IMG/VR virus record: IMGVR_UViG_3300033145_001156
Coordinates: 1-64,000 of that record
Direction: 5' to 3' (one strand)
Length of the DNA stretch: 64,000 nt
Origin: a virus
Part shown: positions 5,134-53,922 of the stretch, in pieces
Layout of the letters: each line of letters opens with the position of its first letter
Position numbering within the stretch: position 1 is the first letter of the stretch
The notes under the pieces: generated by a model
What the model saw: only the letters and a program-made list of their open reading frames with translations
What the model was told of the DNA's origin: nothing
Database searches by the model: none
Translations under genes and position numbers: made by a program

Positions 5134-5538
5134 TTGTGTGCCGTGAGTGAGCCGAAACGATGGGAGAAGACCTACACAAAACCGGAACGCTCAGAGATGG
5201 CTCTACATGCCACCTTAGCATTGGGGGGCAATGAGGACAAGGTGGCAGTCGTATGCCTTCGCTACGAATACACGCTCCGGGCCAAGGACGTGCAATTTGC
5301 AGAATTGGTAGAGCTGTACAACGACCTCTATGACCTATCGCAGACCACAGTCCGGAAATACAAGATGCTTGAGGCCACGCTCAAGTCTAAGGACGTGCAG
5401 ATAGCGGCGCTGGTGATGGCGTGTCTTAAATTCTCGAAAGCACATGGCTATGATCACACTACAGACATTACAGATGCAATGGTAGACCCACAGGACTGGG
5501 CAGAGTTTGATGCTGCAATCAAGGAGGCGACGCAATGA
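5134..5538 (+). CDS. Hypothetical protein, paralog of 5535..5855
   Basis: Shared LRYE.TLRAKD.Q and AAIKEAT blocks. Confidence 0.6.
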   Translation: MCAVSEPKRWEKTYTKPERSEMALHATLALGGNEDKVAVVCLRYEYTLRAKDVQFAELVELYNDLYDLSQTTVRKYKMLEATLKSKDVQIAALVMACLKFSKAHGYDHTTDITDAMVDPQDWAEFDAAIKEATQ

Positions 5539-20462: not shown

Positions 20463-22278
20463 AGACGGGAGGAGGAGGATGGTAACGAGGGAGCAGAACA
20501 GGCTGAACATCCTTGTGGATTTATACTTGGATGATCGGAGTATCCTGTCAGACAGGCAGAAGAACGCTGCCTGGGAGGAGATCAAGCGGCGCGATGCGCT
20601 GGGTGAGTTTTGGTCGGTCATGTTGCAGCGATGGGTGGGAGGAGATGATGCAACTACTACGGTGGAGGATACGCAGCGCGGATCCCGGCTGGCCAGAAGT
20701 GGAAGTGAGCGCGCCATCTGCTCAGGAAGCAGCAGAACAGGGCTTTGATTGGTATGAGCGCGTGGTTGTGCGCGAAGTCATGATGGATTCGCTCGGGCGC
20801 AAGAGAGGATTGGGAAAAGAAACGGAATGGCATAAGGAGGATAATCATGGCGTGGTCAGTGACGAGGCGGGCGACGGACGAGGATTACGAATTACTGGAG
20901 AAGCGGGCAGCGGCCTTCATCGGGCGACACCAGATCACGTGGCATGAAGGGGATTCGGCAGTCGGGGCAGTAGAGCTCGAGATTGAGTGGCTTCGGTTAC
21001 CCGATAGCAATGAATTCCAGCAGATGGAGGGCAAACGCCTGGAGCGTCTCTGGAAACGAATCTGCAACAGGGCGATAGGAGACGACGGGATCTGTTTCGG
21101 GAGTGTCGGGCATAGCGTGGATTAACATGTACAGCGCACGAGAGGAGCGCTATATAAGAGTTGCCCTAACGCCATGAAAAAACCAGCGGGGTGCGTAGAA
21201 AGCTGGGACGACTGGGCTTCGAGAATTCAGCGGTATCAGCGTATTTCATATGGCTGTGTCTACACGCACCGGAAAGTTGATCCTTCCCGCCAGCAGGGAT
21301 GCGGAAGTTGTCTTCAGTGACGGCCTAAATGTGGGTAGTGGGTAATGTAGAGTCCCGCGACTTCCTTCACTTGAACTAGACAAGTGCAGCATCATCCCTG
21401 CTGGCGAGAGTGATCAATAAATCAGAGGAGGAAAAAGTGATCAAGTATCATAGCCATAATGGGTTTTACAATGACGGGAATTCGTGTTACGTAACTGAGG
21501 ATCGGACACTCGATATTGAAGCTGGGACCCTGACTATTAAGTCGGTCGAGAGCTTGGGTGGGCAGCTTGCAGGTAACCACCAGTTTGCTCACAAGGAGAA
21601 TGTCACTGAGGAAATCCGGGAGGCTGTTCCGTTTTCGGTTGAGCAAGAAGATGCTGTTTGGAAGGCGCTGGAGCCGCTGGTGGAGACGGCGAGGAAGTAT
21701 CCGCATTTGGAGACGTTCCGGTTCTTCTCCGACAAGCACCGGTGGTTCGTGAAGGGTCGAATCGACAAGGCGGTCAGGCTGGCGGGGGATAGCGACTACC
21801 ACGGGGTGTATTGCTTGAAGGACGTGTTCGCGCTCCCGAAGCATGGCGTGGTATTGACGGCTTATTATGAGGACACCTATAAGCATTCGTATTGGAAGTT
21901 CAGGGTGGAATCGCTAGGAGGAGAAGGTGAAGACGCCATACATCGGGTTCAGCAATGAGACATTGGACAAGATGCCCACGGTCAAGGCGGGGACATTATC
22001 GAATGTCAGAAGTGCGGCGGTGAACATAGCGCGAAGGGCGTTGTACAAGAAGGCTGACTGGGAAAAGAAGGGTGGTTACAAGGCGTTTCATCGCAGTTTC
22101 GCAAATGCAAGCACTTTCACAACAGAATGACGTTTTCGACAGGATGCAGTTACACATCCTGAGCCTGGGGTACTACGTGGACCAAAAGGTACTGATCCTA
22201 GTACTCTTGTAGCGTAGAAACGCTACGCTTAGTGTATCCTGGGCTGAACCGCGCGCTTTGCGCGCACTACTTGGGTCG

Positions 22279-22387
22279 GTTGCAGTCTTCGAGAAGTGAA
22301 GTAGGAAACTGTAACACGAGGTGACATATGAGCAAGAAGAAATTGCGAGAGGTGGTTGCAGTCTTCGAGAAGTGAAGTAGGAATCTG
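22279..22387 (+). CRISPR. CRISPR-like mini-array: 37-nt repeat, 39-nt spacer, 3'-degenerate second repeat
   Basis: GTTGCAGTCTTCGAGAAGTGAAGTAGGAAACTGTAAC at 22279-315; first 29 nt identical at 22355-383. Confidence 0.65.
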
Positions 22388-22678: not shown

Positions 22679-23798
22679 TAAGTAGAAAGGATGGGGTGAT
22701 GAGGAGCAAGATTCTGGATGAAGTTGTGGCTCACGGGGTCAACTCAGATACAGTGTGCGAGGTCGCGGGGTTGCTGGCGGTGGAGGGTACGGTGGGTGTC
22801 TTTGAGGTTGCGACGGAGATAGGAACTCGGACGGATCAGATGTACCAGCCACATCTGGGGGTAAAGAAGAGACCGACGCAGGAACTGGTCGATTGGGTGG
22901 CCGAGGTTTTGGAAAAGGAGTGGTGATATGAAGGGACAGGAGCTGTGTGACGCACACATCGCGGCAATCAGGCATGCGAGCGGTGACAGGTGTGCCGACA
23001 AAAGTGAGGTGTATCATGACAAGGGCTGGTACTATGTCAAGGTGGCACAGAAGGCCCATGACGGCAGTTGGGGCACGTGGGGAGTAGCTAGTCCTCGTCG
23101 CGCCCAAGACATCATCGCCAGGATAAGGATGTTGCGGGGGAGGGTTAGCTATGAGACGAGAAGGAGCCGCCTAGCCCATGCCCGTGAAGTTGAACTCGCG
23201 CATCACATATCCGTCGAGCGCGTCTGGCGGGAGGTGTCGGACAGCTACGAGGTCAGGATGTCCGTCCCGTCGTCGCTCATCAAGGGGATCCAGGACATGC
23301 GGGACTTCGGGGACACGGTTGATGAGGCTATCAGGGTGGCGGAGGGGATGGAGGGGGAGTGATGCTGAGGGAACGAGCACTAGAAGCGTGGATCGAAGAG
23401 GAGAGGGGCCGGAAGGATGCTCAGGAGCGCACGGACGTCGGGCTGTTCAGGAGGGCCAGGGAGCATTTCTCCAAGGCGTTCGGGGTGGAACCTGAGGTTG
23501 TCAAGCGCACCAGCCACTGGGTCGAGGTGGGGGCCGGGGGCATGGTGTTCTTCTTCAACCCGATGACGAAGACTTACTGGTTGTGGGGCGAGTGCCCGGA
23601 CTGCGGATGGCATTGCTGGTCGTCGCGCGGGTTCCAGACGCTGGGCGAGATGGGGAGGGTGATTGCCGAGTTCAAGCCTGAGGGGCACAAGTGCGGGACC
23701 CCAGAGGATGTGGAGGAGACTGCCGCTGAGACTTTGCGCAAAGCGTGGCGAGCCTTTATGATGGAGGAGTGATGAAGGAGCGAATAAGGAAATGGAAT

Positions 23799-23827
23799 TT
23801 GACAATTTCGTAGAGATGTAGTATACT
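23799..23827 (+). promoter_or_regulatory. sigma70 promoter of tnpB
   Basis: TTGACA-17-TATACT. Confidence 0.85.
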
Positions 23828-23957
23828 ATTGACACTGCGAAGAACCGATAGCGTTTCCGAGGACTTTCTTTTGGGGCTAATCCCCGAGATTAAGCGCTGG
23901 TTCTTCGCAGGAAGCAGCCTTGGGTCTCGGGGATTGTCTATTTCTGGAGATGATTGA

Positions 23958-25073
23958 ATGATCAGAGCAAGAGCATATAAGACGAAGCTGAAATTGAATA
24001 ATTGTGAGAAGACGTGGTGCAGGCGGTGTGCTGGTGCATCACGTTTTTGTTATAATTGGGGCCTGGCCCAAATGAAAGAAGCTTATGAGCAAGGAAGAGA
24101 GACGAGCGTGGGGGCTGAGAAGAAGCGCCTCAATGCCACCAAGGATGAAATCGCTCCGTGGTTGCGGGATGTACCTTATGCTGTGTTGCAGTCTGCATTT
24201 GATAACCTGTTCAAGGCATACTTGAATTTCTTTCGGAGGGTGAAGAAGAGGAAAGGCCCGGCAGGATTCCCGAAGTTCAAGTCGAGGCGTAATTCGCGGC
24301 AATCATTTACTCTACGAGGCAGTATTCAGCTCACGGAGACTGGTATCAAGTTGCCCCGTATCGGTTGGTTGCGGTTGGCAGAACATGGTTACATGCCTAC
24401 AACAAAGCGGGCGCGAATCTTGTCGGTGAACGTCTCAACCCGAGACCACGGGCTAACCTGGTATGCCAGTATCCAGGTAGAGGAAAGTGTACCTGAACCT
24501 ACCCCGGCGACTGGTGAACCACTGGGGATTGACCTGGGGATACATGCATTGGCGGTGCTGAGTGACGGTACGGTGTATGAGAACATCAAGCCATTGAGGA
24601 CGGCGCAACGAAAGGTGAAGCGGCTGTCGAAGGAATTAGCGCGTCGCACGAAGGGCGGCAAGAACTGGCTGAAAACCAAGGCCAAGTTGAACAAGGCTCA
24701 TTTGCATGCGCGGAATGTTCGGTTATCTTACCTGCACCAGATCAGCGCCGAGACAATTGCAAAGTATCCCAGAGTGATCGTGATGGAAGACCTCAATGTA
24801 GCAGGGATGGTAAAGAATCACTGTCTGGCGAGAGCGATAGCAGATTTAGGGATGTATGAGGTTAGGAGACAGATGAGCTATAAGGCTGCGTGGAATGGTT
24901 CTGAGTTCAAGTTGGCTTCCAGATGGTATCCTTCCTCGAAGGCATGTTCTGGGTGTGGGTGCATCAAGGACGGGTTGACGCTGGCCGACCGGACGTTCAC
25001 TTGCTCGGACTGTGGACTAGCGATCGATCGAGACCTAAACGCGGCCTTGAACCTGGCGGCGTTGGCACGTTAA
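23958..25073 (+). CDS. tnpB: TnpB RNA-guided endonuclease (IS200/IS605/IS607 OrfB family), solo, RuvC triad intact
   Basis: RAYKTKL, SRFCYNWGL, GFPKFK; RuvC-I GIDLG, RuvC-II VMEDL, Zn finger CSGCG/CSDCG, RuvC-III DRDLNAALNL; no tnpA nearby. Confidence 0.95.
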   Translation: MIRARAYKTKLKLNNCEKTWCRRCAGASRFCYNWGLAQMKEAYEQGRETSVGAEKKRLNATKDEIAPWLRDVPYAVLQSAFDNLFKAYLNFFRRVKKRKGPAGFPKFKSRRNSRQSFTLRGSIQLTETGIKLPRIGWLRLAEHGYMPTTKRARILSVNVSTRDHGLTWYASIQVEESVPEPTPATGEPLGIDLGIHALAVLSDGTVYENIKPLRTAQRKVKRLSKELARRTKGGKNWLKTKAKLNKAHLHARNVRLSYLHQISAETIAKYPRVIVMEDLNVAGMVKNHCLARAIADLGMYEVRRQMSYKAAWNGSEFKLASRWYPSSKACSGCGCIKDGLTLADRTFTCSDCGLAIDRDLNAALNLAALAR

Positions 25074-25183
25074 CAACCGTTGGAGGCCCCCAGAACCGGG
25101 GGTGACTGCCTGGGGAGTTGGAGTGCTGTAATGCTCTACTATGAACCAGGAAAGGCGCAGAGGAAGTCGCTCATAAGTCGCCT
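25074..25183 (+). ncRNA. Putative TnpB omegaRNA (reRNA) scaffold; boundaries uncertain
   Basis: Directly downstream of tnpB: CCCCC/GGGGG hairpin, GCCTGGGGAG...TGAACCAGGAA stem, AGGCG/CGCCT hairpin. Confidence 0.65.
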
Positions 25184-25218
25184 GGGGAATCCATGCAAGT
25201 TTATGCAGTTTGCATAGG

Positions 25219-25309
25219 GTTTCCCCCACGCACGTGTGGGGAGTTTGAACACCATCTGCTACTACGCGGTGAAGCGGAACGTTTCCCCCACGCACGTGTG
25301 GGGAGTTTG
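25219..25309 (+). CRISPR. CRISPR mini-array: two identical 29-nt type I-E-like repeats and one 33-nt spacer
   Basis: GTTTCCCCCACGCACGTGTGGGGAGTTTG at 25219-247 and 25281-309; CCCCAC/GTGGGG hairpin; spacer AACACCATCTGCTACTACGCGGTGAAGCGGAAC. Confidence 0.85.
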
Positions 25310-25971
25310 GAGCGAACGAAGTTCCGTCTGTATCGGTGGTGGGCGAAGCTAACAGGCGAACCGGTGATCATCTGTTGTCAGAAGAGACGTGCGCCCAGGT
25401 GGTGGATTGTGTTTCCGCACAGGGGGAGATGATGAGGAAGGGAAGTGAGATTGGGGCTGGATGAGGATGTTTGGTTTCGGTATCCCGCTGTTGTGCCTTG
25501 GGACGTAGAGGTTATAGAGGAGGACTTGTGATGGAGTACTGGCGCGGAGTTATGTGGTGGACAGTTTCGCCTGAGTGGGCCTGCATCATATGCGGGCACA
25601 GAGGGATGACGTGGGGGTTCGTCCGCGCGGAGTGCAGGTGCGACCTGTGCCATGCGAGGTACTTCATGCGGGACAGGGACGGGAAGATCATCAATGTCCC
25701 CATCACGCTGTTGAAGGAGGATTTCCAGGAACCGGCCAGGGAGCTGTGGGGGAAGTACCGGATACCTATTGATCAATTAACGGATGAACAGTGGGAAGAG
25801 GTGGGTATCGAGTTATAAGGGGGATGACGTGAAGAAGAAGGAGTATCAGAAGCTAGTGAAGACGTGTCAGGAGAGCAAGGGTCAGGGGACCTGTGATGGC
25901 TGTCCTGACTTCTGGGCGAAGGAGTGTGTGAAGGGGAAACATGCCATCTTGCGCTGGATAGGGGGATGGAT

Positions 25972-26316
25972 ATGAACAGGGATGAATTTCTAGCACGGGA
26001 AGTCATGCAATGGCACTGGGAGATACATGAGGCCATTCTTGGGTGGGTTGAGTATTGGGAGGGCTGGGTTGCCAGTGATGGGAAATGGAAGGCATCTAAG
26101 TGGAATCCTGGCGAGAGCTGGCCTCAGACTGGGATGGTCTTGAAGGAGATGGAGAAGGATGGTTGGGAATGCAGCATAACTACTCGTTTCGGGTTGCCCA
26201 AGTGCGTCATATTTCTCCGGCCTGCTAAGGACTGGATTTACAAGATGGCTGAACATGATGACTTGCGGGAGGCCATTGCGAACGCGGCGGCTAGGGCAAA
26301 AGGGTGGGAAGGATGA
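25972..26316 (+). CDS. Phage ABA-sandwich/BC1872-like protein; paralog of 38821 and 39185 genes
   Basis: LAREVMQW...WNP..SW...EMEKDGW...AAARA shared pattern. Confidence 0.55.
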   Translation: MNRDEFLAREVMQWHWEIHEAILGWVEYWEGWVASDGKWKASKWNPGESWPQTGMVLKEMEKDGWECSITTRFGLPKCVIFLRPAKDWIYKMAEHDDLREAIANAAARAKGWEG

Positions 26317-26924
26317 ATAACCTGTACTTAGTTGTGAGTGAGGAGTTGAGTTACGTTGCAGTCATTGACCCGGAGATCGGCGGGCCGACGGAGTGGTACC
26401 GGATAGCCGAGCTGGTGGTGGCTGGGGGCCATTCCCAGGCACGGTATCTGGCATGGCAGGCAGACAAGGATGGGTATGCGTGGACTTATGATTTCAACGA
26501 GATGCCGAAGTTTGCTGTCCGGCTGAAGGAGAAGGACGTCGAGGGGCCAGCACGGATCGCCACGGATGAGCATAGGTTCCCCGGGGACTTTGGCGAGGAC
26601 TACGAGCGGGAGTATCATGCGTTGTGGGACGTCGGGAAGGCCCCGCATATCGGTTATGGAGGGGAATGATGGTAAAGTGGTTGACGACGGTGCAGGGTGA
26701 ATGTCAGCGATTGACTGGGGTATCTGGGGAGCTGCGGTCGTTGGCGGATGCCTGCAAGGTGGTGGGATTGGGAGAGTTGAACGAGCAGTTGTTGGTATGT
26801 GCTTATGACATAGAGGGTGCGCAGTCCGAGATTCTCGGGGCTGTCGGGACCATGATATCTGATGAGCTAAGAGATAGCCAGGCAGCCATCCACGACACGT
26901 TCTTGGCCATGTTGGGGGGGCAGG

Positions 26925-53364: not shown

Positions 53365-53922
53365 ATGGGCAGACGCAGAGAACTGGCAGAACTAAGGCGG
53401 GACAGGCGAAGGATAGCTACTCTATATCTCAGAGGTAAACTTCAAACGGAAATCGCTGAAGAGCTAGGGATCAATCAGTCAACTGTAAGCCGTGATTTGA
53501 AAGCGCTTCAGAAGGAATGGCTGGAAGACACCAAGATTGACTTCGACAAGGCTAAAGCCAGAGAGATTGCCAAGATTGATAACCTCGAACGCATTTACCA
53601 TGTTGCTTGGATACGCAGTTGTGAGGATGCTGAGACTATTCGTAAGAAGAAGGCAGAAGTTGCTGGGGTAGAGCGTAAAGAGATCGTCACTACTGCTAAG
53701 GGGCAGGTAGGTGATCCTCGTTTTTTGACGGGGGTACAGTGGTGTATTGAGCGGCGCTGTAAAGTGTTGGGCATTGATGCGCCAACGAAGATAGCACCGA
53801 CAGATCCGACAGGGGAGAAGGAATATACAGGGCTTACGGACGAAGAGCGAAATAGACGGATATGTGCGCTCCTTGGGATCAAGCCAGAGGGTGAAGCTAG
53901 ATCGGATACTTCTGACGAGTGA
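53365..53922 (+). CDS. terS: Terminase small subunit (HTH)
   Basis: QTEIAEELGINQSTVSRDL; IERRCKVLGIDAP; immediately upstream of TerL. Confidence 0.75.
   Translation: MGRRRELAELRRDRRRIATLYLRGKLQTEIAEELGINQSTVSRDLKALQKEWLEDTKIDFDKAKAREIAKIDNLERIYHVAWIRSCEDAETIRKKKAEVAGVERKEIVTTAKGQVGDPRFLTGVQWCIERRCKVLGIDAPTKIAPTDPTGEKEYTGLTDEERNRRICALLGIKPEGEARSDTSDE

What the first reader, a model, noticed from the sequence alone, without database searches (positions are those of the whole stretch)
23799..25309. Solo phage TnpB whose omegaRNA runs directly into a CRISPR mini-array
Seen: an intact 371-aa TnpB with its own promoter and structured leader and no tnpA. It is followed by an omegaRNA-like scaffold (about 25074-25183). 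Two identical 29-nt repeats around a 33-nt spacer start 145 nt after the stop codon. The intervening GGGGAATCCATGCAA (25184-98) can pair with TTGCATAGGGTTTCCCC (25210-26), which includes the first 8 nt of repeat 1, like a fused anti-repeat. Known: Cas12 lineages arose repeatedly from TnpB by association with CRISPR arrays, and the repeat resembles type I-E repeats. Inference: a domesticated, reprogrammable TnpB that takes its guide from the array, possibly using host Cas1/2/6. The alternative is a mini-array for host Cascade that is merely co-transcribed.
Basis: partly seen in the sequence, partly recalled or inferred. Interest (0 to 1): 0.93.

Follow-up and report, generated by a model that had tools for sequence, protein, structure and literature searches.

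The report
Phage TnpB nuclease with CRISPR mini-array
A 105-kb phage carries a very small transposon-type RNA-guided DNA cutter (TnpB, 371 aa) whose guide-RNA scaffold runs straight into a two-repeat CRISPR array, and the same layout in a whole clade of related, mostly phage-borne genes marks it as a real intermediate between a transposon nuclease and CRISPR-Cas12, a kind of system described only in 2023-2026.

Summary
An intact 371-aa TnpB (23958-25073) sits behind a near-consensus promoter. A conserved, covarying omegaRNA-type scaffold follows it. Two identical 29-nt repeats flank a 33-nt spacer and start 145 nt after the stop codon. The phage has no tnpA, cas1 or cas6e.

The link between gene and array is not chance. 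Among 167 homologous loci, 29-nt palindromic repeats with mostly 32-33-nt spacers follow the scaffold in 12 loci, and 3 more carry one such module. In an IQ-TREE tree these 15 form one side of a branch (SH-aLRT 96). Eighty homologs from reference genomes have none.

The 3' half of the repeat matches the guide-adjacent end of canonical omegaRNAs. Its tail can pair with the loop of scaffold hairpin 1, like the ISDra2 pseudoknot. A locus-specific anti-repeat pairs with the repeat's 5' half in 7 of 12 loci.

Best reading (about 0.7): TnpB takes its guides from the array, as in TranC and Cas12r of Thermus Lalka phages. Spacers are probably loaded by a host type I-E-like Cas1-Cas2. No target was found and nothing was tested at the bench.

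This scan has already noted the same kind of system on other DNA. LalCas12r shows no full-length similarity to this protein, so this is a separate lineage.

The parts
23799..23827 (+). sigma70-type promoter, TTGACA-17-TATACT
   Evidence: 11 of 12 consensus matches. It is the only + strand promoter-like site in 23600-25700.
23828..23957 (+). Structured 5' leader of tnpB. It contains a terminator-like hairpin at 23918-23932. It is not a recognisable IS200/605 left end.
   Evidence: MFE -48.7 kcal/mol, z = -2.4.: hairpin followed by a T run.: upstream regions of homologs are unrelated, so no left end is conserved.
23958..25073 (+). tnpB: 371-aa RNA-guided RuvC nuclease of the ISDra2 type, lacking the ISDra2 C-terminal tail
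   Evidence: The full-length match to ISDra2 TnpB (8bf8) has E = 8e-57. The catalytic D192/E277/D357-359 and the Zn-finger Cys are conserved.
25044..25218 (+). omegaRNA-derived (tracr-like) scaffold. Hairpin 1 is 25086-25103 with loop 25092-25097. The long-range stem pairs 25109-25113 with 25146-25150. The ATAAG motif is at 25173-25177. The 5' boundary is not determined.
   Evidence: conserved blocks in 10 loci. RNAalifold predicts 28 pairs, 18 of them with compensatory changes.
25181..25198 (+). Anti-repeat: complementary to 25210-25226, which is the leader end plus the first 8 nt of repeat 1
   Evidence: MFE fold.: duplex energy -15.7 kcal/mol, and only 1 of 11 foreign repeats pairs as well. 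An equivalent locus-specific complement exists in L011, L013, L014, L016, L026 and L049.
25219..25247 (+). CRISPR repeat 1. It has an internal hairpin and a 3' tail AGTTTG (25242-25247). It is contiguous with the scaffold, so it serves as the terminal module of an unsplit omegaRNA.
   Evidence: The tail GTTT (25243-25246) can pair with GAAC (25093-25096) in the hairpin 1 loop.
25248..25280 (+). Spacer (33 nt), read as guide 1
   Evidence: No match in the phage itself, in the INPHARED phage collection or in IMG/VR.
25281..25309 (+). CRISPR repeat 2, identical to repeat 1
25310..25329 (+). Sequence after the last repeat: candidate second guide and probably the ancestral omegaRNA guide position. 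Its length is inferred.
   Evidence: It is unrelated to the spacer, so the array is not a plain tandem duplication. In Cas12r the stretch after the last repeat is processed into a guide.

Best explanation
This is a phage-domesticated TnpB-CRISPR hybrid, of the TranC / type V kind.

Proposed mechanism:
1. The phage transcribes tnpB, its omegaRNA-derived scaffold and the two repeat units as one RNA from the promoter at 23799.
2. TnpB binds the scaffold.
3. Each repeat is a copy of the omegaRNA's terminal module, which is a hairpin plus the guide-adjacent tail.
4. The tail (AGUUUG) pairs with the loop of scaffold hairpin 1 to form the pseudoknot that all TnpB and Cas12 guide RNAs need.
5. The 5' half of the repeat can pair with an anti-repeat at 25181-25198.
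6. The 16-20 nt after a repeat then act as the guide for RuvC cleavage of matching DNA next to a still unknown TAM.
7. Repeat 1 works in cis as an unsplit omegaRNA. Repeat 2, and the arrays of relatives, must dock on the scaffold by refolding or in trans.

Spacers of a fixed 32-33 nt were inserted at the scaffold-proximal repeat, most likely by a host type I-E-like Cas1-Cas2. The likely targets are rival phages or other mobile elements.

What is shown: the anatomy, the conservation, the clade structure and the covariation. What is inferred: guide use, the pseudoknot, trans docking, the source of spacers and the targets.
For: 1. Conserved linkage. Arrays of 29-nt repeats lie on the tnpB strand directly after the scaffold in the window, L013, L014, L016, L019, L020, L026, L041, L044, L049 and L004, with 2-6 repeats each. 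L015 has a 4-repeat array directly upstream of tnpB. L011, L012 and L037 have one module. None of the 80 reference-genome homologs has such an array directly downstream of tnpB.
2. One clade. In the IQ-TREE tree a branch with SH-aLRT 96 separates 15 rows (12 with arrays, 3 with a single module) from 29 rows, of which 28 have none. The FastTree result agrees.
3. Position. Repeat 1 starts 144-221 nt after the DRDLNAA motif, always after the same scaffold blocks. The scaffold has 18 covarying pairs.
4. Homology to the omegaRNA end. Canonical relatives end their right end with ..TAAG-TTTCGGAGAACGG followed by the guide. L021 has a hairpin followed by GAGAACGA, and L015's unsplit omegaRNA ends ..GTGTGGGAGTTCTGG. 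Both match the 3' half of the repeat.
5. Pseudoknot. Loop and tail complement each other and change together: GUUCU:AGAAC in canonical relatives, GAAC:GUUU in the window and L012, GAUC:GAUU in L011 and L013, AAACAC:GUGUUU in L019, GAGC:GUUC in L015. In ISDra2 the nucleotides -5 to -3 form this pseudoknot (PMC10097598).
6. Anti-repeat complementarity is locus-specific in 7 of 12 loci.
7. True spacer insertion. The spacer and the post-array sequence are unrelated. Of 28 internal spacers, 18 are 32 nt and 6 are 33 nt.
8. The nuclease is intact.
9. Precedent. Cas12r of Lalka phages uses 29-bp repeats and 31-33-nt spacers. One repeat suffices there, and the sequence after the last repeat also yields a guide. 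TranC proteins use both reRNA and CRISPR RNA.
10. Phage context of relatives: head protease, endolysin and IMG/VR records.
Against: - No RNA data and no cleavage data exist for this locus.
- No protospacer was found for the window's spacer, so neither target nor TAM is known.
- The window's array has only two repeats, and its two nearest readable relatives have one.
- Pseudoknot support is modest: own pairs average 4.1 bp against 3.4 bp for mismatched loop/tail pairs, and L014, L016, L020 and L026 reach only 3 bp.
- The anti-repeat is weak or absent in 5 of 12 loci, and it competes with the repeat's own hairpin.
- The repeat format is the same as type I-E, so use by a host Cascade is not excluded.
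- Cas12r, the closest tested system, needs no scaffold RNA. The scaffold's role with repeats 2 and beyond is therefore unproven.
Confidence: 0.7

Rival explanations
1. The two repeats form a cas-less viral mini-array. It is made for the host's type I-E Cascade (interviral conflict) or acts as an RNA decoy of host Cas proteins. It is merely co-transcribed with an unrelated TnpB.
For: - The format is that of type I-E: 29-nt repeat, central hairpin, 32-33-nt spacers, and the same orientation in which an I-E array would be read.
- The phage has no cas genes.
- Virus-borne mini-arrays of this kind are known (cited in the text found).
Against: - The array follows the TnpB scaffold in a whole TnpB clade and nowhere outside it. 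An independent host-directed array would not track the TnpB phylogeny.
- The repeat's 3' half is homologous to the omegaRNA end.
- Loop/tail and anti-repeat complementarity tie the repeat to the scaffold.
- An exact 23-nt core of the repeat is absent from 185,579 reference genomes and from IMG/VR.
- Rfam, which I recall holds CRISPR direct-repeat families, gives no match at E <= 1.
Confidence: 0.1
2. This is an ordinary TnpB-omegaRNA whose only working guide is the one contiguous with the scaffold. The second repeat is a neutral by-product of recombination or of stray integration by a host integrase and yields no working guide.
For: - The window has only 2 repeats, and its nearest relatives L011 and L012 have one.
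- No targets are known.
Against: - Relatives hold up to 6 repeats with different spacers.
- L015 has its array detached upstream of tnpB, so its guides can only work in trans.
- In Cas12r every repeat, including a single one, yields a guide.
Confidence: 0.12
3. A still mobile IS200/IS605-type element happened to insert beside a pre-existing CRISPR array in the phage.
For: Altae-Tran et al. 2023 keep this open as a general route to type V systems (PMC10691335).
Against: - The phage has no tnpA and a single tnpB copy.
- No conserved left end is present.
- There are no repeats upstream of tnpB in the window.
- The same junction is seen in 12 loci with co-diverged repeats.
- The array-bearing proteins form one clade.
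Confidence: 0.03

Closest known systems
Cas12r-CRISPR of Thermus thermophilus Lalka phages (Trofimova et al., bioRxiv 10.64898/2026.04.20.719267; Lalka27a, GenBank PQ109076)
   Same: - A phage-borne TnpB-like RuvC nuclease is followed on the same strand by a short array of 29-bp repeats with 31-33-nt spacers.
- The phage has no adaptation genes, and the authors propose that host type I-E Cas1-Cas2 loads the spacers.
- Lalka27a also has just 2 repeats, at 53525-53614.
- One repeat suffices, and the sequence after the last repeat is also made into a guide.
   Different: - LalCas12r is 564 aa. BLASTP shows no significant similarity to the 371-aa protein here (E = 0.32), so it is a separate TnpB lineage.
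- In Lalka the array starts 15 bp after the gene, and no tracr or scout RNA was detected. Here a conserved, covarying scaffold fills the roughly 175 nt between the DRDLNAA motif and repeat 1.
- The repeat sequences share only the GTTTC start and the general form.
- Cas12r is shown to work. This locus is not.
TranC, transposon-CRISPR intermediates (Jin et al., Cell 2025;188:6283; LaTranC PDB 9jfo/9jfq), and the phage CauTranC9 (bioRxiv 10.64898/2026.03.27.714800)
   Same: - TnpB-sized effectors from IS605-type lineages are linked to short CRISPR arrays.
- The guide RNA is an omegaRNA functionally split into a tracr-like scaffold and a crRNA.
- One active member (clade 9, about 414 aa on average) is from a Caudoviricetes genome, lacks the ISDra2 C-terminal domain and targets phages.
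   Different: - LaTranC matches only the RuvC/TNB part of this protein (residues 239-370, E = 4e-24), while ISDra2 TnpB matches over the full length.
- Reported TranC repeats are 32-38 bp. They are 29 nt here, with type I-E-like spacing.
- Here the first repeat is still contiguous with the scaffold.
- The Cell paper is not in the library, so I could not check whether this clade is among its numbered clades.
ISDra2 TnpB-omegaRNA (OMEGA system; PDB 8bf8, 8h1j; PMC10097598)
   Same: - It is the best natural full-length structural relative (E = 8e-57), with the same domain order and catalytic triad.
- The guide RNA lies downstream of the gene and overlaps its 3' end.
- A pseudoknot is formed by the nucleotides just 5' of the guide.
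   Different: - There is no tnpA, no definable transposon ends and only one copy.
- The terminal module is repeated with a spacer between the copies.
- The protein lacks the ISDra2 C-terminal tail.
Type V-U / Cas12 lineages that arose independently from TnpB (Altae-Tran et al. 2023, PMC10691335)
   Same: - The array lies downstream of the nuclease gene, mirroring the omegaRNA position.
- There are no cas1/2/4 genes, and the arrays are short.
- The authors propose origin by duplication of omegaRNA segments.
   Different: Most of those effectors are enlarged. I could not map this clade onto their 40 V-U groups.

Membership tests
TnpB (IS200/IS605 OrfB) RNA-guided nuclease | HTH / OrfB_IS605 / zinc-ribbon TNB domain order with the RuvC D-E-D triad | tested here: met
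   - three Pfam domains above their cut-offs.
- D192, E277, D357/D359 and four Cys are invariant.
- aligned over the full length with ISDra2 TnpB.
TnpB (IS200/IS605 OrfB) RNA-guided nuclease | Structured omegaRNA scaffold at and after the 3' end of the gene | tested here: met
   conserved blocks are present, and 18 of 28 predicted pairs show compensatory changes. Rfam has no matching family.
IS200/IS605 transposon (mobile element) | tnpA, or defined left and right ends, and more than one copy | tested here: not met
   - No Y1 transposase in the phage.
- One tnpB copy.
- Upstream regions of homologs are unrelated.
TranC / type V CRISPR-Cas (TnpB-derived effector with CRISPR array) | Evolutionarily conserved adjacency of the effector gene and a CRISPR array | tested here: met
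   12 array loci and 3 single-module loci form one clade with SH-aLRT 96.
TranC / type V CRISPR-Cas (TnpB-derived effector with CRISPR array) | Repeat complementary to a tracr-like RNA, or carrying the pseudoknot-forming segment | tested here: inconclusive
   - the anti-repeat is locus-specific in 7 of 12 loci.
- the loop/tail helix covaries, but the margin over the control is small (4.1 against 3.4 bp).
TranC / type V CRISPR-Cas (TnpB-derived effector with CRISPR array) | crRNA-guided DNA cleavage or interference | not testable with these tools
Cas12r (Lalka phage type V subtype) | Effector homologous to LalCas12r | tested here: not met
   the best BLASTP E-value is 0.32, and the lengths are 371 aa against 564 aa.
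Type I-E CRISPR array (host Cascade-dependent mini-array) | 29-nt repeat with a central hairpin and 32-33-nt spacers | tested here: met
   24 of 28 internal spacers are 32 or 33 nt, and the window's repeat folds at -12.7 kcal/mol.
Type I-E CRISPR array (host Cascade-dependent mini-array) | Repeat identical or nearly identical to the repeat of a cellular type I-E system | tested here: inconclusive
   The exact 23-nt core is absent from 185,579 reference genomes and from IMG/VR. There is no Rfam match. No mismatch-tolerant genome search was possible, and the host is unknown.
Type I-E CRISPR array (host Cascade-dependent mini-array) | Associated cas genes (cas1, cas2, cas6e, Cascade, cas3) | tested here: not met
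   There is no Cas1 or Cas6e in this phage or in the L004 phage. The flanks of array loci hold phage genes.

The most novel reading that the evidence does not exclude
This clade is a natural series that catches the transposon-to-CRISPR step in progress. Within one lineage of roughly 370-440-aa TnpBs there are unsplit omegaRNAs with one terminal module (L011, L012, L037), arrays still fused in cis to the scaffold (this window and 10 others), and one array detached from the scaffold (L015). The terminal module has taken the size and shape of a type I-E repeat, so the phage can let a host class 1 integrase load 32-33-nt spacers for a class 2 nuclease. If so, this 371-aa protein would be among the smallest adaptive CRISPR effectors.
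Probability: 0.3. Interest if true: 0.8.

Novelty: new variant of a known kind. Interest (0 to 1): 0.6.

Why it matters
If the reading holds, a 371-aa nuclease works from a CRISPR array. That is smaller than Cas12f, Cas12n, Cas12r (564 aa) and the reported TranC clades (414 aa or more on average), which is of practical interest for delivery-limited genome editing.

For evolution, the clade offers three states side by side in one lineage: one guide, a cis-fused array and a detached array. The proposed route from omegaRNA to tracrRNA plus crRNA can therefore be tested by swapping natural parts.

The type I-E format of the repeats, seen here in a TnpB lineage with no full-length similarity to Cas12r, suggests that phages have more than once shaped a class 2 guide module so that a host class 1 adaptation machine can fill it.

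For phage biology, it adds a candidate weapon for conflicts between phages and other mobile elements.

Tried and rejected
The contigs of the closest homologs (P0002-P0010, 69-82% identity) could not be read.
- Searches for a protospacer of the window's spacer all found nothing:
  - the INPHARED phage collection by blastn;
  - IMG/VR by exact 22-mers from both ends of the spacer;
  - the phage's own genome with mismatches allowed;
  - all fetched loci.
- The spacer of L004 found only its own array in IMG/VR.
- No relatives of the two flanking phage genes were found in IMG/VR, so no empty-site comparison was possible.
- The exact repeat core was not found in reference genomes or IMG/VR.
- Rfam found nothing in 23000-26500.
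- The closest hit in the INPHARED phage collection, the uncultured phage LR745208 at 43% identity, has no array.
- An apparent array in L118 (Bifidobacterium) is unrelated repetitive DNA.
- My first loop-extraction script picked the wrong hairpin and was redone.
- Plain tandem duplication was rejected as the origin of the window's array, because the spacer and the post-array sequence are unrelated.
Full report
**Source and observation.** The window is the first 64 kb of an IMG/VR virus record of 105,622 bp with direct terminal repeats, rated complete.
- The ORF 23958-25073 (+) encodes 371 aa. It carries the three Pfam domains of TnpB.
- In an alignment of 20 homologs the RuvC residues D192, E277, D357/D359 and the four zinc-finger cysteines are invariant.
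- phmmer aligns the protein over its full length with ISDra2 TnpB (8bf8, E = 8e-57). D192 lies on ISDra2 D191.
- A TTGACA-17-TATACT promoter lies at 23799-23827, followed by a structured leader.
- Two exact 29-nt repeats at 25219-25247 and 25281-25309 flank a 33-nt spacer. None is expected by chance. They are the only copies in the phage.
- The phage has one tnpB, no Y1 transposase, no Cas1 and no Cas6e.

**The decisive test: do homologs carry the same thing?** I fetched 167 loci that encode homologs from IMG/VR, metagenomes and reference genomes. I then scanned them for periodic repeats.
- Arrays follow tnpB on the same strand in L013, L014, L016, L019, L020, L026, L041, L044, L049 and L004, with 2 to 6 repeats each. 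The repeats are 29 nt and palindromic. Their sequences have diverged but share a common form (GTT.. CCCAC .... GTGGG ..TTGG).
- L015 has a four-repeat array directly upstream of tnpB and an unsplit omegaRNA downstream.
- L011 (71% identity), L012 (65%) and L037 carry a single repeat-like module.
- None of the 80 reference-genome homologs has such an array directly downstream of tnpB. These are at most 47% identical and come from Ktedonobacteria, Thorarchaeota, cyanobacteria, actinomycetes and others. The L118 signal flagged is unrelated repetitive DNA.
- Of 28 internal spacers, 18 are 32 nt, 6 are 33 nt and 2 are 34 nt.

**Phylogeny.** A FastTree tree of 64 proteins puts 11 array loci in one clade of 18 rows (support 97). 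The window falls in a subclade of 10 rows (support 96). IQ-TREE with a site-heterogeneous model on 44 rows gives a cleaner picture. A branch with SH-aLRT 96 separates 15 rows (12 with arrays, 3 with one module) from 29 rows, of which 28 have none. The exception is L021, with a weak two-copy repeat. The array therefore tracks the TnpB phylogeny, so chance adjacency and repeated insertion next to pre-existing arrays are unlikely.

**The scaffold.** Repeat 1 begins 144-221 nt after the conserved DRDLNAA motif, always after the same series of sequence blocks. RNAalifold on ten loci predicts 28 pairs, and 18 of them show compensatory changes. In the window:
- hairpin 1 is 25086-25103;
- the long-range stem pairs 25109-25113 with 25146-25150;
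- a third stem encloses the ATAAG motif at 25173-25177.

**What the repeat is.** Array-less relatives that exist in several copies show where their right ends stop. The similarity between copies ends just after ..[G/T]TAAG-TTTCGGAGAACGG, and the guide follows. L021 has a CCCC....GGGG hairpin directly before GAGAACGA. L015's own omegaRNA ends ..GTGTGGGAGTTCTGG. The 3' half of the window's repeat (GTGTGGGGAGTTTG) is the same element. The repeat is thus a copy of the omegaRNA's terminal module, and repeat 1 completes an unsplit omegaRNA whose guide is the spacer.

**Pseudoknot.** In ISDra2 the nucleotides -5 to -3 before the guide pair with a 5' segment beside stem 1 to build the pseudoknot that TnpB and Cas12 enzymes recognise (PMC10097598). 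Here the repeat tail can pair with the loop of hairpin 1, and the two change together across loci:

| Loci | Loop : tail |
|---|---|
| canonical relatives | GUUCU : AGAAC |
| window and L012 | GAAC : GUUU |
| L011 and L013 | GAUC : GAUU |
| L019 | AAACAC : GUGUUU |
| L015 | GAGC : GUUC |

The margin over mismatched pairs is small (mean 4.1 against 3.4 bp), and four loci reach only 3 bp. I treat this as moderate support.

**Anti-repeat.** Across loci, the stretch about 10 nt after the ATAAG motif is complementary to the leader/repeat junction and the 5' half of the locus's own repeat. In 7 of 12 loci this own pairing beats nearly all foreign repeats. Examples are L011 at -19.9, L013 at -16.0, the window at -15.7, L049 at -15.6 and L026 at -14.8 kcal/mol. 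This pairing competes with the repeat's own hairpin. Which fold sits in the ribonucleoprotein cannot be told from sequence.

**Origin of the array.** The spacer and the sequence after repeat 2 are unrelated. The window's array therefore arose by insertion of a spacer with repeat duplication, not by a tandem duplication. The tight 32-33-nt spacer length points to a Cas1-Cas2 ruler. None is encoded in the phage, so a host enzyme is the likely source. This is inference.

**Targets.** I found no protospacer for the window's spacer in the phage collection, in IMG/VR or in the phage itself. In relatives, L004 spacer 2 has a 27 of 29 match about 1.5 kb away in its own phage. L041 spacer 1 has an 18-nt exact match in its own locus. 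This fits spacers taken from related phages, but it is thin evidence.

**Genomic context.** The flanks of array loci encode a head maturation protease (L016), an endolysin (L041) and a capsid protease (L004, an IMG/VR record).

**Comparison with what is known.**
- TnpB gave rise to type V effectors about 50 times, usually with the array downstream (PMC10691335).
- TranC proteins use both reRNA and CRISPR RNA through a split guide. A phage member of TnpB size, CauTranC9, is active.
Cas12r is a phage TnpB-like nuclease with 29-bp repeats and 31-33-nt spacers. Its PAM is ARG. Its crRNAs are 26 nt of repeat plus 18 nt of spacer. One repeat is sufficient, a guide also comes from the sequence after the last repeat, no tracrRNA was detected, and the authors propose host type I-E adaptation.
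- I fetched Lalka27a. Its nuclease is 564 aa, and its array has two repeats starting 15 bp after the gene. BLASTP against the window's protein gives E = 0.32. The repeats share only the GTTTC start and the general form.
- LaTranC matches only the RuvC part of the window's protein.

The window is therefore not a member of Cas12r or of the LaTranC clade. It works like them on the evidence available, and it differs by keeping a full scaffold contiguous with the first repeat.

**Verdict.** This is a separate lineage of a recently described kind of system, and it is untested at the bench. This scan has noted the same kind of system on other DNA several times. No look-alike of this sequence is among those notes.

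Noticed in passing
window 22278-22387: A second direct repeat pair lies about 1.6 kb upstream of tnpB: 34 nt, 97% identical, start-to-start spacing 76 nt. The stretch between the copies holds an RBS-like GAGG and an ATG that opens a 15-codon mini-ORF running into the second copy. It looks more like a duplicated leader or attenuator than a CRISPR unit.
   Followed up: partly
window 23918-23932: A terminator-like hairpin followed by a T run lies inside the tnpB leader, 26 nt before the start codon. It may be an attenuator.
   Followed up: partly
L011:1-310: Two tnpB genes lie in tandem. The upstream copy's scaffold and single repeat module end 9 nt before the start codon of the next copy, so the first omegaRNA's guide would match the start of the second tnpB. 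There is no room for a left end.
   Followed up: partly
L015:2765-2977: A four-repeat array lies directly upstream of tnpB; its last repeat ends 20 nt before the start codon. The scaffold with its own terminal module lies downstream of the gene. This is a naturally detached array within the same clade.
   Followed up: partly
L004:4249-4400 and L004:2750-2778: Spacer 2 of this IMG/VR phage's three-repeat array matches 27 of 29 nt of a terminator-like region about 1.5 kb upstream in the same phage. Spacer 1 has a weaker match at 5359-5381. These are near-self spacers, as expected if related phages are the targets.
   Followed up: partly
L041:4358-4389 and L041:662-679: The distal 18 nt of spacer 1 match the same locus exactly, while the first 14 nt do not.
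   Followed up: no
L049:2495-2831; L019:1581-1732: L049 holds the same spacer twice (spacers 3 and 5). Its spacers 1 and 2 share their 3' ends. The two spacers of L019 share their first 14 nt or so. Either variant alleles of one target were sampled, or units were duplicated and then diverged.
   Followed up: no
L174:3525-3614 (Thermus phage Lalka27a, record 53525-53614): The annotated CRISPR region of the Cas12r locus is 90 nt, which is two 29-nt repeats and one 32-nt spacer. This is the same minimal array size as in the window.
   Followed up: yes
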